Shown here in pieces: positions 746-59,790 of a stretch of 64,000 bases of DNA. The stretch is taken from the IMG/VR virus record IMGVR_UViG_3300009104_000003; one strand, written 5' to 3'. Source of the DNA: an uncultured virus (IMG/VR IMGVR_UViG_3300009104_000003). Its lineage: Duplodnaviria; Heunggongvirae; Uroviricota; Caudoviricetes. Numbering within the stretch: position 1 is the first letter of the stretch; every line of letters begins with the position of its first letter. The notes below the pieces were generated by a model that saw only the letters and a list, made by a program, of their open reading frames with translations, was not told the origin of the DNA and searched no databases. Both the position numbers and the translations under genes were made by a program.

Positions 746-2065
746 TTAGACCATAATGTCGTCAACTCTGAAAATACGGAAATAAGGGTTAGCCCTATCA
801 GTACCAGTTCCGTCAACAGCGACGAAAGGATTGGTAACCATACCATATCTTGTTTTGAACCCAATACGAGGTTGGAAGTCACTCTCGCCGATCGCTTTGA
901 CCATAGTCAAAGGAACGTACGGGCAGTAGAACATACCAGCGTCATAAGGATTAGATCCGCGATACCCAACACATGCGAAATCGCCAGTTGAATAAGGATC
1001 TATGTAGACTTTTAAGCGTCCGTTAAGAACTCCAGCAAAAGTATTGCCAGTGTCATCAACAGATAGTCCAGTTGAAAGTGCAGGAGAGTAATCCATTACA
1101 CCTGAAGCTGCTAAAGCTGAAGCTACGTCAGAAGAACAAAGTACAAAGTTACCTTTTCCTCTACGAGTTTCTTTAGCAATTACGTTAGCTTCTCTTTCGA
1201 GTTGCATAACTAGGCCTTTGAATTTCTCTGCCATCCATCTACCATCAGAGTCAGTTCCGACATCAAAGATACCAGAAACTGCTGTGCTAGATTGAAGCGC
1301 ACCAATTTTTGCCTTCGTTAGAATTGTTCTAACAACTTCTCTATTGATTTCCGCAAGGATTTCAGCAGATAGAATATTAGCCAATTCACCTTCAGCGTCG
1401 AGGCCATGGATAGCTTTCAGATCTTGTGCTAATTCCATAGTATACTCAGCTTTCAGCGCTCTTGATTTAGCTGTAACGGTTGATTTCTCGATTGAGAAAG
1501 CCATTTCAGCGAATGCAGCACCAACTCCACCTGAAGTACCACGGGCTTCCGCAGTAGCTGTTGGTAAACCAGTACCAAATGTGCTAACAGTATCAGCAGT
1601 ATCGGCAATGGAACCATCGGTGTCGGCATCAGTAACACCTACTAATCCAGTTGGATCAGCTTGGTGAGTACCAGTACCTGAAAAGTCAGTATCAGCTTCA
1701 TCAAATAACGCTTCAGTTCCGCCTTGGGTTGTGTAACGAGATTTCATTGCGAAGATAAGGCCAGTTGGTCCAGACATTGGTTGGACTCCAGCTATATCAT
1801 ATGCAATCAAATTAGGCATTGCACGCCTAACTAAAGAAATTAAGACTGGATCGAAATTGTCGACACCAGAACCAGTGACGTTAGCCGCTGCCTCAGATAT
1901 ATCTCCAAAAGATCTTTGTTGTCTTTCTTCCCTTAGGGCTACTTCTTGGTTTTCAAGAAGACGTGCAGTAACCGCTTTTCGATATTTGTCATCGATCGCT
2001 GGAGCATCTTCATGCTCTAGGACAGGTGACCATTTTTCGATTAAGTTTTGGTCTGCGTTAAACAT
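746..2065 (-). CDS. gp23: Major capsid protein
   Basis: Hallmark motifs LIEKWSPVLEH, FDPVLISLVRRAMPNLIAYDIAGVQPMSGPTGLIFAM, SRALKAEYT, FQPRIGFKTRYG. Confidence 0.98.
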   Translation of the reverse strand: MFNADQNLIEKWSPVLEHEDAPAIDDKYRKAVTARLLENQEVALREERQQRSFGDISEAAANVTGSGVDNFDPVLISLVRRAMPNLIAYDIAGVQPMSGPTGLIFAMKSRYTTQGGTEALFDEADTDFSGTGTHQADPTGLVGVTDADTDGSIADTADTVSTFGTGLPTATAEARGTSGGVGAAFAEMAFSIEKSTVTAKSRALKAEYTMELAQDLKAIHGLDAEGELANILSAEILAEINREVVRTILTKAKIGALQSSTAVSGIFDVGTDSDGRWMAEKFKGLVMQLEREANVIAKETRRGKGNFVLCSSDVASALAASGVMDYSPALSTGLSVDDTGNTFAGVLNGRLKVYIDPYSTGDFACVGYRGSNPYDAGMFYCPYVPLTMVKAIGESDFQPRIGFKTRYGMVTNPFVAVDGTGTDRANPYFRIFRVDDIMV

Positions 2066-6497: not shown

Positions 6498-8201
6498 TTA
6501 ACCTGCAGAACCAGCTATTTCAGTAAATGAAACGCCAGATCTGGTAGCTACAAAGTTTAAAGTAATATAATTAATAGATCTTGCAGGCTTGATATAAATA
6601 TCAGCTACAAAACTATTAGTGTCTATTACTTGACTTGTATTGTTGGTTTCATCGCAAATGACTGAAAAATCTGTCAGTCCTCTACGACCCTTGACATCTC
6701 TTAAGAAAGGCTCTACCAAATTCTTAAACTGAGCTCTTGTGAATTCATCGTTGAATTCGAACAATTGAGCTTTAGCTGCAGTTGATACTGCCTTCTCTAA
6801 AGTGATGAATAATCTACGTACATTAATACGATCAAATGCAGAAGGTTTTGCTAATAGGGTTTTATCTCCAAATAGCATAGTACCTTGTCCAGGTAATGAT
6901 ACTAAAGGATTAACTCTTCCCTTGTATAGAGTATCTCTATCCGCTTGGACAGGATTCCATGCAAGTTTAGTTATACCTAATAGTTGTCCTCTGCTTACAC
7001 CAGCTGGTGAATACCAAGCATCTGCAACTCTATCTGTATTAGCACATAATCCAGCAACGTGACCAGCTGCGCCTATCCAACGGTAAGTATCATTGTACTT
7101 ATCGTAAACATAAACTGCAGAAGAATCACATACTGCGTATGAGCTAGAAGTTAGACCATTTGCAAACGCCATAACATCCGTAGCAGGAGCAGAAGCCCCT
7201 TGGCTATCTTCGATTGGAGGTGAGACAAAAGCTACACAATCTTTTCTTGCGTTAGCAATAGAGATTAAGTCTTCAGCAATTGTTTCTGCTCCATTAGCAT
7301 CTGGGCAAGCAAACAATAAACCAACATCAACTGTTTCGGCATCTTCCAATAGGTCGTAACCTGTTGCAATCTCACCAACAGTAGGTGCGTTATCATCTGT
7401 TCCACCAGTTAACGAATCTTCAATAGCAGCCGTATGGCCAGCTATTGCAGTCGTAGCTGCTAATCTTAGATCAGCCCCAGCATTAGTTAATGTAGATGAA
7501 TGATCCATCCATCGTACGTAGTCGGAACCATTATTTACCACATCAACGTAGTAATTAGATGTTCCATCTGGGTTTTTAGCATCAGAAGCTTGTGAAGCAT
7601 ATGCAAATGTTTCTAAAACAGTACCTGCGGTACCACTAAATACTCCATCTTCATCTATAACTGCTACATGAACTTCATCACCTATCGACCCCTTACCAAG
7701 ATTCGCCGCGTACGTCGAAGTTCCTGGTGCACCATTGAAAGATGAGCTATAAGCCCAACCAGAAAAACTGGTGATTCCTTCAGTGATTAATGATACCTTC
7801 AAACTATTTCCTTTGACACCTGGATATTTAGCAGCCCAGTGACCAACGGCCCCTGCACCAGTATTATACCCTGAATCAACATAGTGAGTATCATTTTTAA
7901 TCAAAAGTCCGTTATCCGCCACACCTGTAGCATTTAAATGCCCAGACTGGACGCGAACTACTTTCAAAGCGTTGCCGTACTTTAAGAACGACGCGGCTGT
8001 AAGAAAGTATTTGTATGTATTGTCATCCGGAGCACCAAAGGTATCAGCTAAGCTCTGTTCAGAACTAATGCTAACAACTTCACCGACCGGACCCCAATTA
8101 AATGACCCAGCGAATCCACCAATGCTAGTAGATACGGCAGGTACTACAGCAGTTGCGTCAATTTCATTGACTTGAACTCCTGGTGATACTTGAAATGCCA
8201 T
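6498..8201 (-). CDS. gp18: Tail sheath protein
   Basis: MAFQVSPGVQVNEID, FNWGP, WYSPAG, GDKT, SAFDRINVRRLF, IKPARSINYITLNFVATRSGVSF. Confidence 0.97.
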   Translation of the reverse strand: MAFQVSPGVQVNEIDATAVVPAVSTSIGGFAGSFNWGPVGEVVSISSEQSLADTFGAPDDNTYKYFLTAASFLKYGNALKVVRVQSGHLNATGVADNGLLIKNDTHYVDSGYNTGAGAVGHWAAKYPGVKGNSLKVSLITEGITSFSGWAYSSSFNGAPGTSTYAANLGKGSIGDEVHVAVIDEDGVFSGTAGTVLETFAYASQASDAKNPDGTSNYYVDVVNNGSDYVRWMDHSSTLTNAGADLRLAATTAIAGHTAAIEDSLTGGTDDNAPTVGEIATGYDLLEDAETVDVGLLFACPDANGAETIAEDLISIANARKDCVAFVSPPIEDSQGASAPATDVMAFANGLTSSSYAVCDSSAVYVYDKYNDTYRWIGAAGHVAGLCANTDRVADAWYSPAGVSRGQLLGITKLAWNPVQADRDTLYKGRVNPLVSLPGQGTMLFGDKTLLAKPSAFDRINVRRLFITLEKAVSTAAKAQLFEFNDEFTRAQFKNLVEPFLRDVKGRRGLTDFSVICDETNNTSQVIDTNSFVADIYIKPARSINYITLNFVATRSGVSFTEIAGSAG

Positions 8202-8289: not shown

Positions 8290-9909
8290 TTAAAATAATC
8301 CTGTGGTCTTTGTATCTTCTTCGAACCAAACGTTTCCTTCGCCATCTCCAAATCCATCATCTTTCTTTTGACCATCATCTATAATTCCAAATGGAAGCAT
8401 ATCATCTTGTATTGCTTGTAATTGTTCTTTATATAACATATCTTTCATATCAATATTAGATATAGAAGTAAAAATATCTGTTGTGGTAAACCATCCAAAT
8501 AGTACTAGATTCATCATCAGATCATCATGATTAGGGGCAATAGCCATAAAGGATTTTCCCCTGGCTACAAAAGTACTCATTTCTATAATAGTTTGAGCAT
8601 CTCTTATTATTAATTTCTTTTGTTCAATTAGATCTTTTATAGTAGAACATCCTATACGTTTGACTCTTTGAGTCATTTGAGCACCAATAGCATTCTTTTT
8701 AATAGCTGATTCTACAAACATATTCTCATATTCAAGATCATAATATAATCCATTACATACTACCATACCTGCATCATTTGATTCAACTATTACATAGGCT
8801 TTATTATAAGTCATTGCATATTTGTATATAACATCTGGAAATAGCATAGGAGATATATTATTATCTCTAAATGTAGCTACTTGTTCAAAAGGATTAGTAG
8901 ATATATCTATTATATTAAATGTTGAATAATCTTGTCCTCTTCCTTTCGCTGTATCTACCATTAACAAATAATCATGTTCTTTTATTGGTTCTTTATATAC
9001 AAAAACATTCTCTTTAATATGTAATGGTTCAACACTTTTCTGAGATAATAGATAATTTGCTCCAATAAGTGTATTACCTCTACCATGAAATGTATTAGCA
9101 AACTCTTGTTCAAATTGCAATTCAGATGTATTCGATATAGTTTCTTCTTTCCATTTTTCATCCCTTCCTGGTACATCCCACCAATCTACTCTAAAGGGTT
9201 TAAATTCATTTGATCCTGTAGTTGCTCCTTCCCAAAGTTTATGATATATATTACCAATACCATTAGCTGTTGATGTAACAATAATTTGTGTATCTTTACC
9301 AGCCGTAACAACAGGATAGGTTGAGGTATAAAATTGTGCATCATTTTCTACAAAAGCAAACTCATCCAAGAATAAAAGATTGATTGATAATCCTCTAATG
9401 GACGAACCGCTTGTAGCCGCTGCTATAATTCGCGAATTGTTACTAAATTCTATACTCCCTTTATTAAGTGCTTTACATCCAGGCTGTAAAAAGAAGGGTA
9501 AGTTCTCGAGCGCGAGCGTTACACGCGCGAGCATCTCGCGAGCGACCGCGCCCTTGTTCGCGAGTATGGCTATAGTTTTTTCTGGATAGAAACATGCATA
9601 CCATAAAAGATATACAACAGAAGATATAGATTTACCACTTTGTCTACATGCTAGTATAATGGAAAATCTATTTTTATGGAAATGCTTAAACATTTTCTCT
9701 TGATAAGGATATAGGTCAAAGTTTATAAGACCTTCATCAAGAGAGATAATCTTTACATATTCACGTGCAAAATATGCAGGATCTTTCTGACACTTTTGGT
9801 ATTCTAGTATTTCTTTACGAGTAAAATCTGCAACAACACCATCTCTTTTGATAGAAGGGTTGCCTAAATATCCAAACTCGTTATTTTTAATCCTCTGCAT
9901 CGACATCAA
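8290..9909 (-). CDS. gp17: Terminase large subunit
   Basis: YLGNP, Walker A RQSGKS, Walker B LLFLDEFAF, STANG coupling motif, HDDLMM nuclease motif; true start may be 9900 or 9906. Confidence 0.97.
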   Translation of the reverse strand: MMSMQRIKNNEFGYLGNPSIKRDGVVADFTRKEILEYQKCQKDPAYFAREYVKIISLDEGLINFDLYPYQEKMFKHFHKNRFSIILACRQSGKSISSVVYLLWYACFYPEKTIAILANKGAVAREMLARVTLALENLPFFLQPGCKALNKGSIEFSNNSRIIAAATSGSSIRGLSINLLFLDEFAFVENDAQFYTSTYPVVTAGKDTQIIVTSTANGIGNIYHKLWEGATTGSNEFKPFRVDWWDVPGRDEKWKEETISNTSELQFEQEFANTFHGRGNTLIGANYLLSQKSVEPLHIKENVFVYKEPIKEHDYLLMVDTAKGRGQDYSTFNIIDISTNPFEQVATFRDNNISPMLFPDVIYKYAMTYNKAYVIVESNDAGMVVCNGLYYDLEYENMFVESAIKKNAIGAQMTQRVKRIGCSTIKDLIEQKKLIIRDAQTIIEMSTFVARGKSFMAIAPNHDDLMMNLVLFGWFTTTDIFTSISNIDMKDMLYKEQLQAIQDDMLPFGIIDDGQKKDDGFGDGEGNVWFEEDTKTTGLF

Positions 9910-10300
9910 TAATATTGTCCTTATCTAATAACATTCTTTGAAGCTCTGTAGTACTTCCTACAAATACATTGTTATTAGTAATTTCTCTCCTCACATCATC
10001 TTCGGTTAATTCTTTTTTATTCTTTTGAAGTTTCATTAGCTTATCAGTAATATCACCAATAGATTTTAGGTGATTAGATAATACTTCAAATGCGCGCGGG
10101 TGCTCGCTCTCGCGGGCGAGCTCGGCTAATGCATCCATTGATTGGGTACCAACACTTATAAGATCTTTATATGTTGCCCGTGAAAATTCATAATCATCCT
10201 TAATTTCTTTTTTATCTTTAAGGATTTCGTTTTCTTTTCTTTTTTCAGCTGGAAGATTTTTGGCCAGCCGGTCAGATATAGCTTGTTTTTTATCAATCAT
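9887..10300 (-). CDS. gp16: Terminase small subunit
   Basis: DYEFSR, A.ESEHPRAFEV, NNVFVGSTTELQRML. Confidence 0.93.
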   Translation of the reverse strand: MIDKKQAISDRLAKNLPAEKRKENEILKDKKEIKDDYEFSRATYKDLISVGTQSMDALAELARESEHPRAFEVLSNHLKSIGDITDKLMKLQKNKKELTEDDVRREITNNNVFVGSTTELQRMLLDKDNIIDVDAED

Positions 10301-21502: not shown

Positions 21503-21847
21503 CTATGTATTTTCTGTTATGTATGCTTCACCTAATGCCATAGCTGCTATATAAGCTGAATCATCACCACCATCATTTTTCCAACCAACCATATCTGGTT
21601 CCATATTAGGTGGAAGAGGGTCTCCAGTTATATTATCTTTTCCATCCCATGCTAGATAAGCTGCAATTGCATCAATATAATTTCTCATTTGATAATTAGC
21701 CGCTTCTTGTGTTTCTGGTGTTGGAAGATTATAATGATTAGTTCCATTAGTATTAAGGTCTTCTATCATTGCTACATGATCATCTATTTGATTCAATACA
21801 TGTTGTACTGTATAACTAGCTGATCCACCATATCTATTTTCAGTCAT
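21503..21847 (-). CDS. Hypothetical protein (114 aa)
   Basis: ORF overlapping the stop of the 1808-aa fibre gene; possibly fibre accessory. Confidence 0.65.
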   Translation of the reverse strand: MTENRYGGSASYTVQHVLNQIDDHVAMIEDLNTNGTNHYNLPTPETQEAANYQMRNYIDAIAAYLAWDGKDNITGDPLPPNMEPDMVGWKNDGGDDSAYIAAMALGEAYITENT

Positions 21848-27884: not shown

Positions 27885-28790
27885 CTAAGTCCAGTTGTTT
27901 CCTGCTACAGCAATATAAACCGCTTGCATAGTCCAAACTCCAGAAGTGTTAGTTGTAACTGCGGGTTCTTTAATGATAACAACACCAGAGGCACCTGCTG
28001 TACTATTGATACTGTTACCAGAACCTCCGCCACCACTACCTGTGTTTACAGTTGGCGCTGATGATGACTGATTGTTACCAGCACCATTACCACCACCACC
28101 AGTTCCACCAGTTCCACCAGATTGACTAACATCACCACCGCCTCCACCACCACCAGCTCTTGTTACAGATGAACCTGTGATTGAAGAAGCCGTACCAGCA
28201 CCACCGTGACCACCGTGGCTATAATTGGTCCCATCAGTCTGCCTACTATGACCACCAACTGCGCCAGCACCTCCGCCGCCGCCTCCGCCGCCAAGTGCGT
28301 TAGCTCCACCGCCACCTCGACCGCCACCAGCATTACCTTGACCAGAAGGTGATGCAGCACCGCCTCCTAAACCGTTTGCGTAACCATTTCTACCACCAAC
28401 ACCACCGCCAGAGCCACCAGCATCACCTGCCCCTTGGAAACCTGCTCCGTATCCACCGCCTTCGGAAGTTATTGAAGAAAAAACTGAATCTGATCCGTGC
28501 ATTGCAGAACTATTTCCTGCATTACTTTGAGCTCCACCTGCACCTACAGTAATTGAGTAGTCGGTTGAACTTGAAACCGAGAAACCACTAGCTGTCCTAT
28601 AACCACCAGCTCCGCCTCCACCAGAAACAGTGCTTCCAGCACCACCACCACCAGCAATAACTAAATATTCAACTTCGGTTGTTAGCGCGCCTGTTGTAAG
28701 AGTACCACTTGAGTTAAATGTACTTATAACTTCAGCTTGTGAACTTGGCACATTACTTTTGCCTATTATTCCACCATTAGCACTAGCCAC
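27885..28790 (-). CDS. Glycine-rich virion protein (301 aa)
   Basis: VEYLVIAGGG, GGGGAGGYR, YSITVGAGG, NTGSGGGG, GASGVVII - typical phage glycine-rich domain. Confidence 0.8.
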   Translation of the reverse strand: MASANGGIIGKSNVPSSQAEVISTFNSSGTLTTGALTTEVEYLVIAGGGGAGSTVSGGGGAGGYRTASGFSVSSSTDYSITVGAGGAQSNAGNSSAMHGSDSVFSSITSEGGGYGAGFQGAGDAGGSGGGVGGRNGYANGLGGGAASPSGQGNAGGGRGGGGANALGGGGGGGGAGAVGGHSRQTDGTNYSHGGHGGAGTASSITGSSVTRAGGGGGGGDVSQSGGTGGTGGGGNGAGNNQSSSAPTVNTGSGGGGSGNSINSTAGASGVVIIKEPAVTTNTSGVWTMQAVYIAVAGNNWT

Positions 28791-30577: not shown

Positions 30578-33500
30578 TTAAACTTTGATCGCAGAATGTT
30601 TTGTCTTGATAGCGTGTGTATTTGATCCAGTCCTTGTATATTGAATAAGAACATTACCACCAGAAATAGTGGCTGAAATAGTTCCTAATGCAGCAGAACC
30701 AGTATATATTTGAGCATATTCTGTTATTGATGCTGTAGATCCATTATGAACCATAAGAACCTCAGTTGATTCATATTCTCCTGCAGTTGCATCCTTAATA
30801 GATATTTCTAATTTAGCTGATCTATATGTTGCTGCAGCAAGAGAACAAATTGTTGTAGCACTTCCAGAACTAACAGAAGTTACGGTCATTCCTATTGAAA
30901 GATCAGAATCAATAGTGACTTGACCATCTGTATTCCATGTAGGACCACCGGTAGAAAGTTTACCCGGAGATACTGAATCATCTGCAGGAACACTAAGTTC
31001 AGTAACTGTTGGTATTATAACCTCAATTGCTGTATTTGCAGTTACATTAGCATCAAATGTTATTGTAGTTCCTGATGTAGTAAATGTAGATTTATTCTGA
31101 TATACACCATCAAAGAATACAAAACAATTATCTTCGCTTAAAGGATTAACCGATAGAGTATAAGCTGCGGTCGAACCATTGGCTGTAAATTGATCACTAG
31201 TATGTCCTACTCCCGTTACTCCAGTTGAGATTGTATGTATAACAACTTCTTGACCGCTGGCCGGAGCAGTATCTAATGTTACTGTTGTTCCTGATTGAAC
31301 ATATGAATTTTTATTTTGATATACACCTTCAATGAATACCAGCATAGAATCTTCATCGGCTGGCTCTTGGCTTACAGTAAATTGAGTTGTTGAAGCATTT
31401 GCAGTAGTAAATAAATCAGTATTAAAAGGATTAACTGCAGTTCCAGCAGTAAGTGTAATTGAATCTGCACTAGCATCTGTGGTAATAGTCATACCAGTAC
31501 CAGCAACAAGAGTTAATGTATCATCAGTGGCATCAGCTACTACGCTTGATTGACCTGATACTGCAATTGTTTTAAATGCATTATCGCCAGTAGCAGAGTT
31601 TGTTATTGTAAGTGTATCTGAACCTGCCGCTGTTGTTAATGTTATTCCTGTTCCAGCTGCAAATGTAAGGGTATCTGTTGTAGAATCTGCTACGATATTT
31701 GATTGACCTGATACTGCAACTGTTTCGAATGCATTACCACCAGCGGTTCCCCAACTTAAGTTTCCAGAACCATCTGTCTTAAGTGCATGACCACTTGAAC
31801 CATCAGCCGAAGGTAATACCCATATTTGATCTGCCGATAGAGCAGGAGCTTCGAAGCCAACATAATTAGATCCTTCATAAAATCTTAATTCTTTATTTGA
31901 ACCATCTAATGAAAGGTTATCATTTATAGTAACTGCACCATTAACATCTAATCCAGTTAATGATCCAAGAGAAGTTATAGCAGTTTGAGCTGCTGTAGTA
32001 ACTGTTCCTGCAGTTGTAGCAGTAGCAGCATTCCCAGAAGTATCTTGTGTACCTGAAGCATTAACCCCAGGTAGATTAATATTAGCTGTACCATCAAATG
32101 ATACTCCACCAATTGTTCTTGCTGTGGCAAGAGCAGTTGCAGTTGCCGATAAAGCTACTGCTATATTTGCTGATCCATCAAAAGAAGTTCCACCAATAGT
32201 TCTAGCTGTAGCTAATGTAGTAGCAGTAGATGCTAAAGCTACCGCAATATTTGCTGTACCATCAAAGGATGTTCCACCAATAGTTCTTGCATTTTGTAAT
32301 GCTGTAGCTGTTGCTGCGTTTCCTGTTGTACTTCCAGAACTTCCAGATGTATTTCCAGTTACGTTACCAGTAACATTACCTTCAAGGTTAGCAACTAATG
32401 TTCCTGTTGCATAACCAGTTCCTGAGGTATTAACTGTAGTAGTTGGAACTGCTTGATTATCTTTAAATAATTTCCACTTACCAGAATCTGATGCATCTCT
32501 AAATAAACCACCGTATAAATCTTGAGAACCTGATGTATCATATAATCCATAAAACCCTATATCTACTGCATCTGCAGAATTATTTCCTGTTGCCATTGAT
32601 ATTAAAGGATCTTCTACGGCCAATGTAGCTGTATTAACTGTAGTAGTATCTCCACTAACAATTAAATCTCCACTAACTGTTAAATCATTAAACGTTACAT
32701 CTGAACTTGTGGCTACTGCTTGTCCAATAGAGATTGCTCCATTAGATATTGCTACGCCCGTGCCCGCGCTTATGTGCGCTCGAACCTCGGCCGCGCTCGG
32801 GCCTGTGTATGTAATAACGCCATTTGAATATGCTAATGAACCATCACCACCAGAATCTGTTACACTTATATGTGCTCTTACTTCTGCAGCACTTGGACCA
32901 GTGTATGTAATTACTCCTGTTGAACTATTGTAAGCTAATGAACCATCACCACCAGAATCTGTAACACTTATTGCGCCTCGCGCGTCCGCGTCCGTATATA
33001 ATGCGGATCCGGCAAGTGTTGTACCGGTTATACTAAGTCCAGTACCAAGTGTTAAGAATTTAGCTGCTCCAGCTGAATCATCCCAAAAGAATATTCTATC
33101 AGCATTAGGATCAGAAAGAGCTTCAAGTCCTAAATGAGATAAACTAAATGTAGTACTAGATAATGCTAGTCCTGTGCCGGCCGAATAAGTTGTATTAGCC
33201 GTCATATCATCGACGACTAAATCTATTGTTCCATCACTATCATCATAGGTAAGAGAACCTCTTGTTTCTGTATTGCTAGTGAACATAGCACCAACAACAT
33301 CTTGAACCTGTTCTGTTGTTAATTGTGTAGAGGCTAGAGTTAATGTTCCAGCGGCATCATCATAAGTTTTAGTTATATTTGATCCGGCAACAATTAGAGC
33401 ATTAACTCTATCATCTACTCTTTCTGATGTATGATATAAATTACTAGAACCTTCAGATAGATCATCAGTATCAGCCGCAGCTATTCGAGCATCTGCTCTA

Positions 33501-34309
33501 GCATTGGTATAATAAAGATTAGAACCTTCTGATAGATTAGAAGTACTTAAATTAGATAAACTTGAAACTGTTCCAGTAACATCACCTGTCAAATCTCCAA
33601 CAAATGCGTTGGCTGTCATTGTACCACTAATAGTAAGATCTGCTACAGTAGTATCAACAACTAAATTAGAAGAATGAGTTACGACCTCGACTGTTGCACC
33701 ATTTGCTGGTGCACTTGAAAATGTAAGAGTAGTTCCAGCTACAGAATAGGTTGTTTTATTTTGATATACACCATTTATGAATATAGTAGTTTGATTTTCA
33801 TTAATAGGATTAGTAGCAAGAGTAAATTCTGTTTCACTACCATCTACACCTGTTAATTGTTGTACTGTATCTGCTCCAGTACCAATTGATTTAAACCATG
33901 CTATAACTTGAAGTAAATCACCATTAGCTGCTGCATTAACAAGAGTTATAGAATTACCATTTGCAGCAGTATAGTCTGTTGTGGGTTGTAATAATACACC
34001 ATTGAGGTATACTTGAAGAGCACCTACTGTATATTTTAGAGTATTTGAACTATTATCGGCACCTGAGAATACAGTATTGCCACTGGTTCCATCGGAACCA
34101 TCGTATTGATATTCTTTAAGAATGTCGGCAGAAACTGCCTCTGATGAACCAATTTGAACTACAGATTGAGTACCACCTACATCTTTCTTCATGTAGGCCT
34201 TACCATCGTAGGTATTAAGGGCTATCTCACCTAAATCTAATTGGGATGTTGTTGGTACGGCGCTAGCTGTAGCTGAACGCCTTAATTTAATATTCGTTAC
34301 GCGTGCCAA
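30578..34309 (-). CDS. Tail fibre-like protein (1243 aa), TTG start
   Basis: IKLRRS...P...L..GEIALNT.DGK N-terminal domain (Mtd_N-like), VYLNGV/VFIEGVYQ beta modules, ARTIGG.SFDG repeats; TTG preceded by AGGAG. Confidence 0.85.
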   Translation of the reverse strand: MARVTNIKLRRSATASAVPTTSQLDLGEIALNTYDGKAYMKKDVGGTQSVVQIGSSEAVSADILKEYQYDGSDGTSGNTVFSGADNSSNTLKYTVGALQVYLNGVLLQPTTDYTAANGNSITLVNAAANGDLLQVIAWFKSIGTGADTVQQLTGVDGSETEFTLATNPINENQTTIFINGVYQNKTTYSVAGTTLTFSSAPANGATVEVVTHSSNLVVDTTVADLTISGTMTANAFVGDLTGDVTGTVSSLSNLSTSNLSEGSNLYYTNARADARIAAADTDDLSEGSSNLYHTSERVDDRVNALIVAGSNITKTYDDAAGTLTLASTQLTTEQVQDVVGAMFTSNTETRGSLTYDDSDGTIDLVVDDMTANTTYSAGTGLALSSTTFSLSHLGLEALSDPNADRIFFWDDSAGAAKFLTLGTGLSITGTTLAGSALYTDADARGAISVTDSGGDGSLAYNSSTGVITYTGPSAAEVRAHISVTDSGGDGSLAYSNGVITYTGPSAAEVRAHISAGTGVAISNGAISIGQAVATSSDVTFNDLTVSGDLIVSGDTTTVNTATLAVEDPLISMATGNNSADAVDIGFYGLYDTSGSQDLYGGLFRDASDSGKWKLFKDNQAVPTTTVNTSGTGYATGTLVANLEGNVTGNVTGNTSGSSGSTTGNAATATALQNARTIGGTSFDGTANIAVALASTATTLATARTIGGTSFDGSANIAVALSATATALATARTIGGVSFDGTANINLPGVNASGTQDTSGNAATATTAGTVTTAAQTAITSLGSLTGLDVNGAVTINDNLSLDGSNKELRFYEGSNYVGFEAPALSADQIWVLPSADGSSGHALKTDGSGNLSWGTAGGNAFETVAVSGQSNIVADSTTDTLTFAAGTGITLTTAAGSDTLTITNSATGDNAFKTIAVSGQSSVVADATDDTLTLVAGTGMTITTDASADSITLTAGTAVNPFNTDLFTTANASTTQFTVSQEPADEDSMLVFIEGVYQNKNSYVQSGTTVTLDTAPASGQEVVIHTISTGVTGVGHTSDQFTANGSTAAYTLSVNPLSEDNCFVFFDGVYQNKSTFTTSGTTITFDANVTANTAIEVIIPTVTELSVPADDSVSPGKLSTGGPTWNTDGQVTIDSDLSIGMTVTSVSSGSATTICSLAAATYRSAKLEISIKDATAGEYESTEVLMVHNGSTASITEYAQIYTGSAALGTISATISGGNVLIQYTRTGSNTHAIKTKHSAIKV

Positions 34310-36784: not shown

Positions 36785-39700
36785 TAACCTTTATCCTTAC
36801 TATTTATACTTTTTAGTTCTTCGACTTCGGATTTTAATTCTTTTATTGATTCTATTAATAATGGAACTAGTTTATCGTACTTAACTCCTAGATATCCATT
36901 ATCACCTTCATCTACTGCTTCTGGTAAAACTTCTTGGACTTGTTGTGCGCTTATACCAACTTGAACTGTTTCTTTATCTTCTGATTCAGCTTTATCATTC
37001 CAAGTATATAAGAATCCATCTAATGCACATATTTTATCTAATGCATTATCTAAAGTTCCAACTTTAATTTTTAATCTTTCATCAGATGATGCGACAAAAT
37101 CAGTAGCATAGAAGATATTAGAAGATGAATTAACAGTAAGTCCACCACTATGATATATTGGTCCTGAACCATCAGATGTAGCTACAGTAAATAATATTCT
37201 AGTTTGAGTATTATTATCCGTATTCAGCCATTTTGCATTAGCACTTTGACTTGAAGCGAAATTACAAACAGAACTAAATGTTTTAGTTCCTCCTATTGTC
37301 TGATTTCCTGTGGTATAAACTCCATTTGTGACTGTTCCTGCATTACCGGTAATACTTCCTGTAATTGTTCCTACGGTGAAATTAGCAACTGTTCCAGTAA
37401 ATGTAGGTGCAGTAAACATAGTAGCTTTACTTTCGTTTGTTACATTACCTAAACCTACATTAGATGCTGTTGTTCCTGATCTAATATCTGCTACTGAAGT
37501 ATTATCTACATTACCTAGTCCAACATCAGATTTTGTTGTTCCTGATCTAATATCTGCTACTGAAGTATTATCTACATTACCTAGTCCAACATCAGATTTT
37601 GTTGTATTACTATTTAATAGAGTTGAAACACTTGTTAATCCTGTTCCACCTCTAGATGCAGGGAGTGTTCCTGCGGTAAGTTTGCTAGTATTTAAATTTG
37701 GTATTCTTGCATCAGCAAGTGTACCAGTTGTAATTTTACTAGCATCTAAATTTGCTATTCTAGCTGCAGCTACCGTTCCAGTATCTATCTCTGAACCATT
37801 AAGATCCGTAATACCTGAACCAATACCTGAAATAATTCCTGATGTCCATATATTAGTACCTAATGCACTTGTTATACTTCCATTCTGAACAACAAATAAT
37901 TGATTTCCACCAGCTTTATTATTCAGTGCAGCATCTGCCCATGCTAATCCATAAAATCCTGTTAAGTTATTACCCGAGGCATGCATAGTATTTGATGTGC
38001 TTCTTCCCCAAACGTGATGGTATTTACCTGCGTTATAGAGTCCATGTACACCATGACCATAGTCAGAAGCTACGAGAGCATTCTGTGTTCCCATAGTAAG
38101 TGAACCAGTAAAGCTATCTGCAGTATCGCTTCTTAAGAATTGACTTGAATCAACCCCATCTAATGTAGCAGCATTTGAAGCTGATGCTGCGTTTCCTGTA
38201 CAAGATGCAGATGATCCATTAATGGATCCTACTATTGTAGAGGTAAACGTTTTAATTCCATTTACTGTTTGATTATTAGATCGATCCATATATCTATCAT
38301 CAAAATCATCAGCTGTCACTGCCGTTACTTGACCTTTTGCATTTACAACAACTGATTTAATATATTGACCATCTTCAGATCCAGTTTGACCATAAGTTGC
38401 TGCTCCAGCGCCAGTATCAGCTAGTGCCCACGTAAAGTGTGCTTGTGAATTAGGTGTTGAGCTAGTTACAGTTATACCTGTTCCAGCATCAAAGTATAGT
38501 GCAGCATTATTTCCACCATAACTACTAGGTGAAAGTCCAGATCCAGTAGTAGGAGTTATAACTTTCCATATATTTTGAGAGGATCCTCTGTCACTGTTAG
38601 TGATAGGAATATCAATATCATTACCAGTTATTCCTACATCTCCATTGTCTAACTCAATTCCAGTTCCTTCTCTAAAATGTAATCTCCTAGTTCCAGATAA
38701 TTCCATATTTCCGTCACCAGTTAAATCTGTACCTGAACTATTAGTTATTGCTACCTCTGCAGTTCCTAGTGTTGCTTCAGATAATACTAATGATCCATCT
38801 GCTTCCCAACGATCTGTTGCAAAATTATATACGAGTGAGTGAGTACCAGCTACGCCCGCTGCCGCGTTCGCGTGAGGGTTTGTTTGTCCAGTAAATGGCC
38901 TTGTTTCTATACCAAATCCACCACTTGATGGATAACTATTTGAAGCACCCATTAGTATTATAGTATCATCTACTTCTAATGAGGTAGTATTTAATGTAGT
39001 TGTTGTACCATTAACATCTAAATTACCAGTGATAGTAATATCACCTCCAACAGTTAAATCATTACTAATTATAGCATTGCCATCACCTGGATCTGATCCT
39101 GATGTTGCAACTCTAAGTCCGGCTGTTCTTGTATAATCCGTAACTGTTAAGTCATTTCCTATTGTAACATCATCTGGTAATGCAAGTGTAACTGCTGCTG
39201 TTTCTGAACCTGATCCAGAAACTGTTATTTCGTTAGCTGTTCCAGCAATTGTTGCTATATAATTTCCAGTTGTATGAGCACCTAAATCAACTGAATTATT
39301 TGCGATTGTTGTTATAAGGTTTTGATTGGCTAAATTCGTAATTGTTGCGGTACCAGTTACATCACCAGTTAAAGTAATACTAAAGTCATTAACATCAAAA
39401 TCAAAATTCTCGTTTGTAGCATCCCAAGTTACATTAATACCTGATTCGGTATTATTAGCTATTAAATTAAATGCATTATATCTTGTAACAATAGAAGTAG
39501 TATTAGTAGTACCATCAGTTTCCATTCCAATTAATTGCCAAGCTTCTTCTGGGTTAACTAATGATGAACCATTATGAGCTATAGCTTCATTCCATTGTAA
39601 TCTTACATCATGATTTGTCATAGTACCAAATTGAGTAATATGATCTCTATCAACCTGTAGTCCCATTCCTGTGGACAGGTTAGCATCAAGATTTAAGAAT

Positions 39701-50620: not shown

Positions 50621-52473
50621 TAGGTTCTAAACCTTGAAGTAGTTGTATAATCTATAGAACCTGAAGAACCAGCTGTAGAGATAGTATCTATTTCTGCTGT
50701 GACTGACATTCTTGCCCCATCAACTGCTAAAATTTCTTCTCTCTTTGGAGCAACATCTAATGAATCAGGTGTTACGGTTAATCGAATTTCAGTAGTATCA
50801 TCTGGGGTAAAATTATTTAATACTACTACGCCAGTTGAAGGAGTAATTGTTCCACAATTATCTATTGTAGTTACTTTAATACTATCAACTATTTTATAAG
50901 AATATATTTGTCTATCTGTAGAACCTGAAATTGCTTTATCTGCAAAATAATTATCAATACCACCATATTTCCAGGCAGTAGAACTTATACAAGATTCATC
51001 AACACCATTTGGAGTAAAGATTGATCCAGGGAAAGTAAGTGTAAAATTATTTAATACGCCAACTGTTGCAATTGGTGTTATATTTTTAAATATAAAAGGT
51101 CTACAGGTAGAAGACAATATTGATGGATCAGAGCTATCAATTTGTTTTAATATTCCAGAATGCCTAAATACTCCATCAAATTTATTTAAGTTATTAAGGC
51201 TATAATCATCAACTGTATCTTTTACAACAGAAACTAGATCTGCAGAAGTTCTATCTGTTAGATTAGGATTATATTTAAAATATATATCTAATTCTAAATA
51301 ACTATAATCTGGATCTATGATTTCTGGCGTAACAGATACAACATTTTTTCCTTTAAGGATAGAATTAATAATAGATATTTTTTCATCTGGATCTAATGTT
51401 GTTGCAGTTGTTGGTTTAATACAGATAAAAGCTTTTCCATAATCAGGTATAGCTTGATCTTCTCCGCCCCAAGTATTAATAGAAGAAATATTTGTAAAGT
51501 TTCTTTCGATAATAGATTTATAATCATCTGCCGTAACTGCTCTATTTTGAGCAGTAAATGCTATTGGAGCATTATATCTAATTGATTCTATAGTTTCTTG
51601 ATCAGCTCCACCTGCTGCATTACTGACAGTTGTTACTGCAGTATTAGAAAATCCACCAATTGAATCTACCATAGTAAATGTAGTAGCTCCATTAGAATCT
51701 TTACCATTTGAGTGTACATAATCTAGAGTAACAATATTATTATTAGCAGGTTTAGTACCAATAACCCCATCGCCCATATATAACTCATAAAATCCATTTG
51801 AATTTTCTTGAAGATGATAAATCTTAGAAGTTGATACTACATTTAATAGAGTAGTAAATTTAATAAACAGATCATAGTTTGAAGATTCTTCATTCGCCTG
51901 TACGCGCACGCGGAGCGTGGTCGTGTCCACGTTCTTATGAGGAATTTGATGCTTTTGAATTGCTATATCATTATCAACTCTATACTTAATTGAATTATAA
52001 GTTCCTTCAGCAATTTCTACATTATTATATGTATATTTGTTACTAATTAATGATGCAGTTTGGGCTTCTAAAGCAACATATCTATAAGTTAATCCTCCTA
52101 CTGAAGTAGAAAATTTAGCTCCTCTAGGTATTGTAAGAGAAGTAGGTTTTTCTGCTGTTTCACCCGTAACATCTAAAACAATATTAATTTTAGCTCGAGC
52201 TGCTAACTCGGATGTAGGAACGTATCCTAACATCCGAGCTCTCGAGACAGCGTTTCCTCTTATTTGAGCAGAATCAAGGAAAGCTTCATTTAATGATAAA
52301 TGTGCGGCCATGGCATTATAATGTGTATTATATGCTAGAACATCTAGTAATACATTTAATCCTGACCCATCAAAATCATAATCATTAAATACGGTTTGTT
52401 GTTTTAGATAATTTTTTAGATTTTGTTTTATATCATCAAAATCTAATTCGGTTACATTTAAATTTGTTGCCAT
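50620..52473 (-). CDS. gp6: Baseplate wedge subunit
   Basis: LDFDDIK, DYDFDGSGL.VLLDVLAYNTHY, E.FLDSA..R, QNRAVTADDY, WGGED. Confidence 0.95.
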   Translation of the reverse strand: MATNLNVTELDFDDIKQNLKNYLKQQTVFNDYDFDGSGLNVLLDVLAYNTHYNAMAAHLSLNEAFLDSAQIRGNAVSRARMLGYVPTSELAARAKINIVLDVTGETAEKPTSLTIPRGAKFSTSVGGLTYRYVALEAQTASLISNKYTYNNVEIAEGTYNSIKYRVDNDIAIQKHQIPHKNVDTTTLRVRVQANEESSNYDLFIKFTTLLNVVSTSKIYHLQENSNGFYELYMGDGVIGTKPANNNIVTLDYVHSNGKDSNGATTFTMVDSIGGFSNTAVTTVSNAAGGADQETIESIRYNAPIAFTAQNRAVTADDYKSIIERNFTNISSINTWGGEDQAIPDYGKAFICIKPTTATTLDPDEKISIINSILKGKNVVSVTPEIIDPDYSYLELDIYFKYNPNLTDRTSADLVSVVKDTVDDYSLNNLNKFDGVFRHSGILKQIDSSDPSILSSTCRPFIFKNITPIATVGVLNNFTLTFPGSIFTPNGVDESCISSTAWKYGGIDNYFADKAISGSTDRQIYSYKIVDSIKVTTIDNCGTITPSTGVVVLNNFTPDDTTEIRLTVTPDSLDVAPKREEILAVDGARMSVTAEIDTISTAGSSGSIDYTTTSRFRT

Positions 52474-59196: not shown

Positions 59197-59790
59197 ATGG
59201 CAAGTTTATTTGATACATTACAAGCTGGAGCATATAGAGCTAATATAGTTCCTAGAACTAAGAAATCTAGGGCTTGGTTTCAAGCGCGCGTACGTGAGCT
59301 CGGGGACGTATCTAGAGCTAAAATAATGAAAGATGATCAGCTGAAAGTACGTGCTCAACCCAAGATAGGTGATATGTGTATGTATGTTTATGATCCTAAA
59401 TTAAAAGCCGAATTACCATATTACGATAAATTCCCTATGTCAATAATGGTACAACCAGCACCAGGGGGATTTCATGCATTGAATTTGCATTATCTTTCTC
59501 CAGGAGTAAGAGCTTTATTTCTAGATGAATTAATGGGATTAGCACCTAAAAAATTAGCAGAAACAACTAGACTAACAAGATTAAAATATGATCTATTAAA
59601 AGGTGCAACAAAATATAAAGAATTTAAACCTTGTTTTAAACATTATCTTATGTCACATGTTAAATCTAAAATTAATAGAGTACCAATGACCGAATGGGAA
59701 ATTGCAGTATTCTTACCAGTAGATGAATTCAAAAAAGTATCTCGAGATACTGTTTGGAGATATTCTAGAAAATCTATATACGGAAAATAA
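59197..59790 (+). CDS. gp2: DNA end protector protein
   Basis: Start corrected to MASLFD; YDPK.K..LPYYD.FP, LNLHYL.P..R, FKPC.KHYL, W.IA.FLP. Confidence 0.92.
   Translation: MASLFDTLQAGAYRANIVPRTKKSRAWFQARVRELGDVSRAKIMKDDQLKVRAQPKIGDMCMYVYDPKLKAELPYYDKFPMSIMVQPAPGGFHALNLHYLSPGVRALFLDELMGLAPKKLAETTRLTRLKYDLLKGATKYKEFKPCFKHYLMSHVKSKINRVPMTEWEIAVFLPVDEFKKVSRDTVWRYSRKSIYGK

What the first reader, a model, noticed from the sequence alone, without database searches (positions are those of the whole stretch)
32755..32910. Internal control: the same peptide encoded once AT-rich, once GC-saturated
Seen: the 1243-aa fibre repeats YTGPSAAEVRAHIS. The first copy (~32864-32905) reads GGT CCA AGT GCT GCA GAA GTA AGA GCA CAT ATA AGT. 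The second copy (~32768-32809) reads GGC CCG AGC GCG GCC GAG GTT CGA GCG CAC ATA AGC, continuing GCG GGC ACG GGC. Nearly every synonymous site switches toward G/C, while the neighbouring repeated segment (aatgaaccatcaccaccagaatctgt) is identical in both copies. Protein sequence cannot explain the island, so the DNA or RNA sequence itself appears to be selected.
Basis: seen in the sequence. Interest (0 to 1): 0.75.

Follow-up and report, generated by a model that had tools for sequence, protein, structure and literature searches.

The report
CpG-saturated synonymous islands in phage genes
An AT-rich marine T4-like phage spells the same fibre peptide once in ordinary codons and once in codons packed with CG steps, and this is one of about ten such short patches in its late genes, so something acts on the DNA itself, though what it is remains open.

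Summary
In the 1243-aa fibre ORF (30578-34309, minus strand), YTGPSAAEVRAHIS occurs twice. Copy 1 has 1 of 14 G/C-ending codons. Copy 2 has 10 of 14, or 14 of 18 with AGTG (P = 5.6e-10). It is the strongest of 19,993 codon windows, and no other repeated peptide in the window swings this much.

It is not unique. Similar 40-70 nt patches lie in the genes for TerS, TerL, gp6, sheath, capsid, gp2 and a second fibre. The G/C choice in them maximises CpG and CGCG, while the genome as a whole is CpG-depleted (o/e 0.53).

- No specific RNA fold or Rfam match was found.
- No GC-rich donor was found. In metagenomes the GC-saturated spelling of the fibre motif occurs only as islands in AT-rich phages.
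- Contigs from four studies carry the island.
- Relatives encoding identical peptides have the island, part of it, or none.
- The fibre motif is a mosaic recombination junction, and one crossover lies inside it.

Best reading, at modest confidence: a DNA-level CpG island kept by a recombination-linked CpG-favouring process. A selected CGCG-dense cis-element is nearly as likely. The function is untested.

The parts
30578..34309 (-). 1243-aa tail-fibre ORF (TTG start) that holds the repeat
   Evidence: PHROG tail fiber families, best phrog_6722 at 4.3e-27
32756..32809 (-). GC/CpG-saturated copy 2, YTGPSAAEVRAHISAGTG. The 40-nt windows with G+C of at least 0.65 span 32749-32815; it holds 10 CpG.
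32864..32905 (-). AT-rich copy 1 of YTGPSAAEVRAHIS (1 of 14 G/C-ending codons)
32829..32869 (-). Repeat D2, copy b (IS-VTDSGGDGSLA coding).
32931..32971 (-). Repeat D2, copy a
32972..33014 (-). Second fibre island over the degenerate motif copy YTDADARGA (3 CGCG; up to 10 CpG per 60 nt)
   Evidence: (z 4.5)
9499..9570 (-). TerL island (AILANKGAVAREMLARVTLALEN): 14 CpG and 6 CGCG, the densest in the window
   Evidence: (z 8.0)
10085..10138 (-). TerS island (ALAELARESEHPRAFE)
   Evidence: (z 6.6)
51889..51942 (-). gp6 baseplate-wedge island (KNVDTTTLRVRVQANE)
   Evidence: (z 8.2)
38833..38892 (-). Island in the 1563-aa fibre-like ORF
   Evidence: (z 5.0)
7950..7997 (-). Weaker island in the tail-sheath gene
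   Evidence: (z 5.4)
884..931 (-). Weaker island in the major capsid gene (no CGCG)
   Evidence: (z 6.0)
59260..59310 (+). Island in the gp2 (DNA end protector) gene, on the other strand
   Evidence: (z 4.8)

Best explanation
The GC-rich copy is a short CpG island written through silent codon positions into a conserved fibre peptide. That peptide serves as a recombination linker between fibre modules. The island is one of about ten such islands in the late genes of an AT-rich (35.5% G+C), CpG-depleted T4-like marine myovirus.

The force acts on duplex DNA. At nearly every silent site, the base that creates a CG step is the one present.

I think the most likely origin is recombination-linked. 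Related phages that co-infect a cell form heteroduplex preferentially in these invariant peptide-coding stretches. A repair or conversion bias that favours C:G in the CpG context then pushes the stretch into a CpG-saturated state. That state is passed on in short tracts.

The two copies in this fibre are the two allelic states of one motif. They were set side by side by an unequal crossover in the 95%-identical 41-nt repeat.

Shown here:
- the island family
- CpG maximisation
- presence or absence among relatives with identical peptides
- the mosaic junction, with a crossover inside the motif
- no GC-rich donor found in the collections scanned
- no specific RNA fold

Inferred:
- the biased repair itself
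- heteroduplex concentrating in these stretches
- the unequal crossover
For: Island family: 8 CpG clusters with at least 7 CpG per 60 nt, against a Poisson expectation of about 5 such window positions where 329 were seen. Of 44 CGCG in the window, 24 lie in 874 island bases.

CpG maximisation over 9 islands, against random G/C at G/C-ending third positions:
- CpG 72 against 56.5 +/- 3.2, reached in 0 of 5000 trials
- CGCG 22 against 10.7 +/- 2.6, reached in 0 of 5000 trials
- NCG:NCC is 25:7 inside islands and 251:393 outside, Fisher P 2e-5
- Arg is CGN in 11 of 12 codons inside and 117 of 590 outside
- window CpG o/e 0.53, with TpG 1.17 and CpA 1.12

Polymorphism with an identical peptide:
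- TerL island full in 4 of 38 relatives at 74% aa identity or more, partial in several, in two separate starred clades
- TerS island in 12 of 33 rows
- the fibre motif is AT-rich in most relatives, full in L004, L352-L355 and L357, and partial in L003 and L024

Recombination at the fibre motif:
- L355 is 0.79-0.82 identical to L352/L354 upstream, but 0.85 identical to L014 downstream
- L353 is 0.78 identical to the window upstream and 0.93 identical to L003 downstream
- L024 joins an AT-rich 5' half to a 3' half identical to the L352 type, so a crossover lies inside the motif

Direction of change: by my reading of the aligned codons, L355 differs from L014 (its closest relative downstream of the motif) at 15 of 20 codons; 14 changes gain G or C and 12 create a CpG.

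Block-like divergence within the duplicated unit: 2 differences in 41 nt against 12 in 42 nt.
Against: - No enzyme for such a bias was found. Vsr (PF03852) is in 0 of 5 related phage records. A C5-methylase (PF00145) is in 1 of 5, and that record lacks the TerL island. The records are 30-100% complete and the host is unknown.
- A general G/C-biased conversion does not predict a preference for CG steps over GG/CC. A CpG-specific repair has to be assumed.
- Many equally conserved, equally permissive peptides are not islands. Windows with a CpG potential of 14-17 carry 0-3 CpG. One example is the ARTIGG fibre repeat.
- The gp6 island keeps its CpGs across relatives down to about 58-67% aa identity: Arg is CGN in 30 of 31 rows with LRVRV. 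This looks more like purifying selection on a site than like a drifting hotspot.
- For TerL, the similarity between distant island bearers is a local peak with no flanking breakpoint.
- The CpG-maximal spelling of a peptide is nearly unique. Shared codons among island bearers therefore do not prove common descent.
Confidence: 0.36

Rival explanations
1. The islands are selected cis-acting DNA elements: CGCG-dense patches that a phage or host protein recognises. Candidates are the small terminase during packaging, or a methylation or partition-like system. Alternatively they act as duplex 'GC clamps'. In a genome that is 98% coding, they are written into the few peptides (rich in Ala, Arg and Leu-Ala) that allow CGCG without changing the protein. 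They are redundant, so single sites are gained and lost.
For: - CGCG is the only word that stands out: 22 against 10.9, z 4.4, in 8 of 9 islands. The 44 CGCG of the window occur almost always in groups.
- Five islands lie within about 4 kb across the TerS, TerL, sheath and tube genes. The TerL island has CGCG at 9511, 9524/9526, 9537, 9547 and 9559, roughly every 12 nt. The known location of pac sites inside small-terminase genes is recalled, not tested.
- CpGs are kept over deep divergence while the third base of CGN varies (gp6; TerS).
- States are mostly full or absent, with fewer intermediates, as expected of an element that works only when complete.
- A CGCG-dense patch also lies in non-coding DNA of the near-identical record G001, upstream of a sigma-70-like promoter.
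Against: - No motif longer than CGCG, no fixed spacing and no strand rule were found.
- Each island is missing in many relatives with the same peptide.
- The fibre island state is rare: 2 of 98 distinct motif copies in one sample had 8 CpG.
- No binding protein was identified.
- Pelagiphage HTVC008M, with a similar G+C (0.337) and CpG o/e (0.56), has 0 CGCG and no such islands in 50 kb. The element is therefore not general to AT-rich marine T4-like phages.
Confidence: 0.32
2. The islands are clusters of rare codons that slow the ribosome locally, to help folding or assembly of late proteins.
For: The island codons are the rarest in the window: GCG 0.05, CCG 0.06, ACG 0.05, CGC 0.03, CTC 0.04. 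All islands seen lie in structural or packaging genes, but the window holds little else.
Against: - The choice follows CpG, not rarity. CCG (0.06) is used rather than the rarer CCC (0.03), CTC rather than CTG, and GGC rather than GGG.
- C is preferred before a G-starting codon, 13:2 against 120:70 outside (P 0.09, a trend only). This effect spans two codons.
- The position is not conserved: most relatives with the same peptide use common codons.
- The same peptide 32 codons upstream needs no such cluster.
Confidence: 0.08
3. The island forms a functional RNA (or single-strand DNA) structure inside the message.
For: G+C-rich sequence in an AT-rich message folds stably by itself. The local hairpin predicted for the fibre island has -21.5 kcal/mol.
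Against: - The real G/C choices fold no better than random G/C choices. Sense-strand z values for the 9 islands are -0.26, -0.96, -1.47, +0.10, -1.35, -0.79, +0.64, +0.15 and +0.95.
- A 301-nt fold over both fibre islands gives z -0.24, and 43 of 100 shuffles fold as well.
- Rfam gives 0 matches in 64 kb.
- The two fibre islands do not pair with each other.
Confidence: 0.05
4. The patch was imported by recombination from a GC-rich phage or host that shares the conserved motif.
For: The peptide motif is very widespread in marine phage fibres: 98 distinct copies in 80 loci. The only phage-database DNA match to the region is a Roseobacter phage fibre, with 45% G+C over the 6-kb locus fetched, at 70% identity.
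Against: - A scan of 241 million metagenome records for the G/C-saturated spelling found 7 stretches. Five are fibres with AT-rich flanks (0.35-0.41). Two are unrelated proteins in 75% G+C DNA. There is no GC-rich fibre donor.
- In IMG/VR the richest flank was 0.52, with only 6 CpG in the motif.
- A donor that is GC-rich on both sides offers no flanking homology for a 55-nt patch.
- Leu is always CTC and never CTG in the islands I read (sequences). That this is unlike most GC-rich bacteria is recalled.
Confidence: 0.03

Closest known systems
GC-biased gene conversion tracts and very-short-patch (Vsr-type) T:G repair
   Same: Changes toward G/C are concentrated where recombination occurs. Tracts are short, and a CpG-type context is preferred. 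The pattern of genome-wide CpG depletion with local CpG islands resembles the vertebrate picture.
   Different: The islands here are 40-70 nt, inside phage genes, and saturated. No Vsr and no linked methylase were found in relatives. Five literature searches (listings and abstract starts only) found no paper describing such a bias in T4-like phages.
Conserved-motif recombination linkers of T-even tail-fibre adhesin genes (His boxes in gp37, glycine-rich motifs in gp38; Tetart et al. 1998, recalled and not read here)
   Same: A short conserved coding motif lies between variable fibre modules, and crossovers shuffle the modules there. Here the mosaic junction at YTGPSA.EVRAH.SAGTG is shown.
   Different: The motif differs. 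The T-even linkers are not known to me to exist in two synonymous states or to be CpG-saturated. Islands here also lie in non-fibre genes (TerS, TerL, gp6).
pac sites and terminase recognition elements embedded in terminase genes (P1 pac with clustered methylatable repeats; T4 gene 16 and gene 19 homologies; recalled)
   Same: These are clusters of a short, methylatable, palindromic word written inside terminase coding sequence. The TerS and TerL islands fit that location.
   Different: The finding itself lies in a fibre gene. There is no end mapping and no binding data, and the islands are missing in many relatives.
Synonymous GC blocks noted earlier in this scan in a crAss-like phage (e1-5872509) and a CpG-rich codon domain in a freshwater T4-like phage (e1-5684755)
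   Same: Silent sites switch to G/C or CpG inside phage late genes with no change of protein.
   Different: Those are 130-200 bp blocks with a 10-11 bp rhythm, or a 10-kb regional regime. These are 40-70 nt, CpG-maximised, polymorphic and tied to invariant peptides. The earlier notes are unchecked by me.

Membership tests
Recombination-linked biased conversion tract | Differences between island and non-island alleles run from A/T to G/C | tested here: met
   Copy 1 against copy 2: 10 of 12 differences. L355 against L014: 14 of 15 changed codons (my reading of the aligned codons).
Recombination-linked biased conversion tract | Co-location with recombination breakpoints | tested here: inconclusive
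   Met for the fibre motif: upstream and downstream kinship differ, and L024 has a crossover inside the motif. Not seen for TerL, where there is only a local identity peak. Not tested for gp6.
Recombination-linked biased conversion tract | Derived G/C alleles skewed to high frequency within populations | not testable with these tools
   Only contigs were available, not reads.
Recombination-linked biased conversion tract | A repair activity with CpG or T:G specificity is present | tested here: not met
   Vsr in 0 of 5 and C5-methylase in 1 of 5 related records, all but one incomplete. The host is unknown.
pac / terminase recognition site | Lies in or next to the small terminase gene | tested here: not met
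   The finding lies in a fibre gene 22 kb away. Two sister islands do lie in the TerS and TerL genes.
pac / terminase recognition site | Packaged DNA ends or terminase binding map to it | not testable with these tools
   Contigs show no ends (table 6: none).
Rare-codon pause cluster | Position conserved among homologues | tested here: not met
   TerL 4 of 38, TerS 12 of 33, fibre 2 of 98 in one sample.
Rare-codon pause cluster | Codon choice explained by rarity alone | tested here: not met
   CpG-forming codons are preferred over rarer alternatives, and an effect spans codon junctions.
Structured RNA element | Folding beyond composition-matched controls, or a known family | tested here: not met
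Diversity-generating retroelement target | Differences confined to adenines of the template copy, and non-synonymous | tested here: not met
   The 12 differing sites are 6 T and 6 A in copy 1, and all are synonymous. No reverse transcriptase appeared among PHROG hits of the 52 ORFs.
Foreign GC-rich patch | A GC-rich donor carrying the same sequence | tested here: not met
Fibre recombination linker (T-even type) | Conserved motif flanked by modules of differing ancestry | tested here: met
   pair table and alignment.

The most novel reading that the evidence does not exclude
A lineage of marine T4-like phages carries a dispersed set of CGCG-dense cis-elements hidden in silent codon positions. 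A dedicated protein or a CpG methylation and repair system reads them, so these phages have a small-scale 'CpG island' biology of their own. The elements could be landmarks for packaging, recombination or self-recognition. They would be gained, lost and exchanged independently of the proteins they overlap.
Probability: 0.3. Interest if true: 0.8.

Novelty: new variant of a known kind. Interest (0 to 1): 0.62.

Why it matters
Overlapping nucleotide-level signals in coding DNA are usually inferred from weak statistics. Here nature supplies a clean control: the same peptide, in the same gene and 96 nt apart, in two spellings. Dozens of related phages carry one spelling or the other.

If a biased repair drives the islands, that would be a case of CpG-directed conversion shaping phage genes. 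It would also warn that synonymous conservation in phages need not mean function.

If the islands are cis-elements, they are a handle on packaging or recombination control in an abundant, uncultured group of ocean viruses.

Either way, the fibre motif is a natural crossover point for swapping host-recognition modules.

Tried and rejected
- Whole genome of the window: not held.
- Phage database DNA searches: no close relative. The best TerL match is 66% (Phage C48C1). That genome has 43% G+C and CpG o/e 1.1, so it is no comparator.
- Rfam: 0 matches.
- RNA folds: no excess.
- Longer motif, palindromes and spacing: only CGCG stands out. The 6-mer palindrome excess (18 against 11.9) mostly disappears when trials are matched for CpG (15.8).
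- Z-DNA-like purine-pyrimidine alternation: no genome-wide excess. Runs of 13 or more number 6 against 6.5 expected. Inside islands CG and GC steps are up and GG and CC are down.
- CpG 'potential' of the peptide: necessary but not sufficient.
- Triple-CGCG and paired-CGCG pattern counts in five related records: too sparse to compare genomes.
- Vsr and C5-methylase in relatives: no support.
- tRNA genes in the window: none.
- Earlier scan notes: none on this genome. One sequence look-alike concerns a different fibre feature.
- Literature: five searches (listings and abstract starts only) found no description of such islands in phages. Subscription journals are not covered.
Full report
WHAT THE WINDOW IS. 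The 64-kb window is 35.5% G+C and 98% coding. It holds the structural and packaging module of a T4-like myovirus. PHROG matches cover the major head protein, portal, sheath, tube, large and small terminase, baseplate wedge gp6, DNA end protector gp2 and several very long fibre-like proteins. Nearly all genes lie on the minus strand. The nearest phage-database relatives are distant: TerL DNA is 66% identical to Phage C48C1 and 67% to Pelagibacter phage HTVC008M. IMG/VR holds many uncultured marine relatives, among them near-identical contigs from other samples.

THE OBSERVATION. The fibre ORF (30578-34309, minus strand, 1243 aa) contains ...YTDADARGAIS-VTDSGGDGSLAYNSSTGVIT-YTGPSAAEVRAHIS-VTDSGGDGSLAYSNGVIT-YTGPSAAEVRAHIS-AGTG... 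The first YTGPSAAEVRAHIS (32864-32905) uses the phage's ordinary A/T-ending codons. The second (32768-32809, running on through AGTG to 32756) uses G/C-ending ones. There are 12 differences in 42 nt, 10 of them from A/T to G/C.

Given the peptide and the window's codon usage, 14 of 18 G/C-ending codons has P = 5.6e-10. Copy 1 has 1 of 14, against 1.86 expected. Of 19,993 sixteen-codon windows this one has the largest G+C excess, z 8.4. Among 12 families of repeated peptides in the window, no other shows a swing above 4 of 10 codons; this one shows 8.

Contigs from four runs of four studies cover the island. One 424-nt piece has no difference and a 153-nt piece from another study has four. No listed variant falls in 32743-32899, but 119 variant rows were not shown, and these are contigs, not reads. 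IMG/VR and metagenome contigs repeat the island as well.

IT IS ONE OF A FAMILY. The same scan finds comparable patches elsewhere:
- gp6, 51889-51942, z 8.2
- TerL, 9499-9570, z 8.0
- TerS, 10085-10138, z 6.6
- major capsid gene, z 6.0
- sheath gene, z 5.4
- the 1563-aa fibre-like ORF, z 5.0
- gp2, on the plus strand, z 4.8
- a second patch in this fibre over YTDADARGA, 32972-33014, z 4.5

The window as a whole is CpG-poor: o/e 0.53, with TpG 1.17 and CpA 1.12. Yet its CpGs are strongly clustered. Of 44 CGCG, 24 lie in 874 island bases, and most of the rest come in pairs. G+C-rich stretches at 28239-28465 are a different thing: glycine runs.

WHAT DEFINES THE ISLANDS. I held the peptide fixed, kept which codons end in G/C, and drew G or C at random.
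- The nine islands together carry 72 CpG against 56.5 +/- 3.2, and 22 CGCG against 10.7 +/- 2.6. Both values were reached in 0 of 5000 trials, and every island lies above its null mean.
- NCG is chosen over NCC 25:7 inside islands and 251:393 outside (P 2e-5). C precedes G-starting codons 13:2 against 120:70 outside (P 0.09).
- CG and GC steps are enriched (z 4.8 and 3.9). GG and CC are depleted (z -3.1 and -3.0).
- Arg is CGN in 11 of 12 island codons and in 117 of 590 elsewhere.

No word longer than CGCG stands out, and there is no fixed spacing or strand rule. The palindrome excess largely follows from CpG. Purine-pyrimidine alternation is not enriched genome-wide. The real G/C choices do not fold better than random ones (z -1.5 to +1.0). 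A 301-nt fold across both fibre islands is ordinary (z -0.24). Rfam finds nothing. The signal is therefore about CG steps in DNA, not codon rarity or an RNA fold. A permissive peptide rich in Ala, Arg and Leu-Ala is needed but is not enough: many windows with a CpG potential of 14-17 carry 0-3 CpG.

RELATIVES. Peptides under the islands are invariant, yet the spelling varies.
- TerL (GAVAREMLAR[VI]TLALEN). The island is full in 4 of 38 relatives with at least 74% aa identity (L079, L110, L137, L142), partial in several (L080, L083, L085, L086) and absent in the rest. On a tree built without the island columns, the full state sits in two separate well-supported clades. Between these clades similarity peaks locally at the island, 0.87-0.89 against about 0.70-0.78 around it.
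- TerS (ELARESEHPRAFEV). 12 of 33 rows carry at least 6 CpG in 54 nt. Arg stays CGN while its third base takes all four values, so the CpG is what is kept, not G/C at the third position.
- gp6 (LRVRVQANE). Arg is CGN in 30 of 31 rows with that peptide, down to about 58% aa identity. It is AGA in L323 and in all 9 rows where the peptide is LRTRV.
- The islands assort independently. L137 and L142 have the TerL island but not the TerS one. L136, L138, L141, L143 and L151 have the reverse. G002 has the fibre and TerS islands but not the TerL one.
- HTVC008M has a similar G+C and CpG depletion, but 0 CGCG and no such islands in 50 kb. The habit belongs to a lineage.

THE FIBRE MOTIF. YTGPSA[AST]EVRAH is very widespread: 98 distinct copies in the 80 loci fetched, with flanks of 0.33-0.52 G+C. 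It is nearly always spelled AT-rich in AT-rich phages; only 2 copies had 8 CpG.

A scan of the metagenome collection for the G/C-saturated spelling returned 7 stretches. Five are fibre homologues with AT-rich flanks (0.35-0.41), each with a single 40-nt bin at 0.75 G+C. Two are unrelated proteins in 75% G+C DNA. I found no GC-rich donor.

The motif lies between modules of different ancestry:
- L355 matches L352/L354 upstream (0.79-0.82) but L014 downstream (0.85).
- L353 matches the window upstream (0.78) and L003 downstream (0.93).
- L352 matches L007 and L011 downstream (0.84-0.88).

L024 has an AT-rich 5' half joined to a 3' half identical to the L352-type island, including its Ser codon family. 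That places a crossover inside the 60-nt motif. Fibres that share closely related downstream modules carry different states (L353 against L003, L355 against L014, L352 against L011), and identity dips at the island.

L355 differs from L014 only by single-step silent changes, 14 of 15 toward G/C and 12 creating CpG (my reading). L352 differs from L011 by switches of Ser codon family, which point to block replacement. Both in-place directional change and patch exchange therefore seem to occur.

HOW THE 'INTERNAL CONTROL' AROSE (inference). Within the duplicated unit, the first 41 nt differ at 2 sites and the next 42 nt at 12. The two YTGPS copies match the two states that segregate among relatives. 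The simplest history is an unequal crossover in the IS-VTDSGGDGSLA repeat between an island-bearing fibre and an AT-rich one. That set both states in tandem.

MECHANISM. Two readings remain close.
- (a) Recombination-linked, CpG-favouring conversion. It explains why islands sit in invariant, recombination-prone stretches, why tracts are short and nested, why the direction is toward CpG, and why genome-wide CpG decay coexists with islands. It lacks an identified enzyme. It does not explain why other conserved permissive peptides are spared, nor the deep retention in gp6.
- (b) Selected, redundant CGCG-dense cis-elements. It explains the retention, the mostly all-or-none states, the concentration around the terminase genes, the roughly 12-nt CGCG spacing in TerL and a non-coding CGCG patch in the near-identical record G001. 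It lacks a motif and a reader protein, and must accept frequent loss.

I put (a) at 0.36 and (b) at 0.32. The rest: rare-codon pausing 0.08, RNA structure 0.05, foreign patch 0.03, and the remainder for something not thought of.

WHAT IS KNOWN. The nearest concepts are GC-biased gene conversion and very-short-patch repair, the conserved-motif recombination linkers of T-even fibre genes, and pac-type elements inside terminase genes. The last two rest on recall. Five literature searches (listings and abstract starts only) turned up no description of short CpG-saturated synonymous islands in phage genes. Two earlier notes of this scan describe larger synonymous GC or CpG regimes in other phages; I did not check them. 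I rate this a new variant of a known kind, with a real and strong signal and an open mechanism.

Noticed in passing
L359 (KC465899.1 40001-90000): Pelagibacter phage HTVC008M has no CGCG at all in 50 kb, at 33.7% G+C and CpG o/e 0.56. My rough estimate from base and CpG frequencies is about a dozen expected, so the word may be avoided there.
   Followed up: no
L289 1490-1700 (G001, beyond the window's right end): A non-coding stretch holds a CGCG-dense patch (4 CGCG in about 25 nt) and two small G+C hairpin-like repeats. A TTTACA-17-TATAAT promoter-like site follows, ahead of a 146-aa ORF.
   Followed up: partly
window 21840-27266 and 30578-34309: The 1808-aa fibre-like protein and the 1243-aa fibre share a stretch with 56 identical 10-residue words (around KDNQAVPTTT). 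This suggests module exchange between fibre genes of one genome.
   Followed up: no
window 28239-28465: G+C-rich stretches (up to 0.80) in the 301-aa ORF encode glycine runs (GGRGGGGANALGGGGG). Amino-acid content explains them, so they are not of the island kind.
   Followed up: partly
window 32650-32685: An 18-nt tandem pair at 89% identity encodes the repeated DLTVSG/DLIVSG just downstream of the island.
   Followed up: no
window 9505-9552 versus L004 about 2790-2830: The sense strand of the TerL island and the antisense strand of the L004 fibre island share the 12-mer CGCTCGCGCTCG. This may be chance in low-complexity CG sequence.
   Followed up: no
L292 (G003:C1:43266-44156): One related 128-kb phage record encodes a C5 DNA methyltransferase domain (PF00145, 52.7 bits), while four others show none.
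   Followed up: no
window 32124-32414 (+): A 96-aa GTG-start ORF lies antisense inside the fibre gene. It is probably spurious and was not examined.
   Followed up: no
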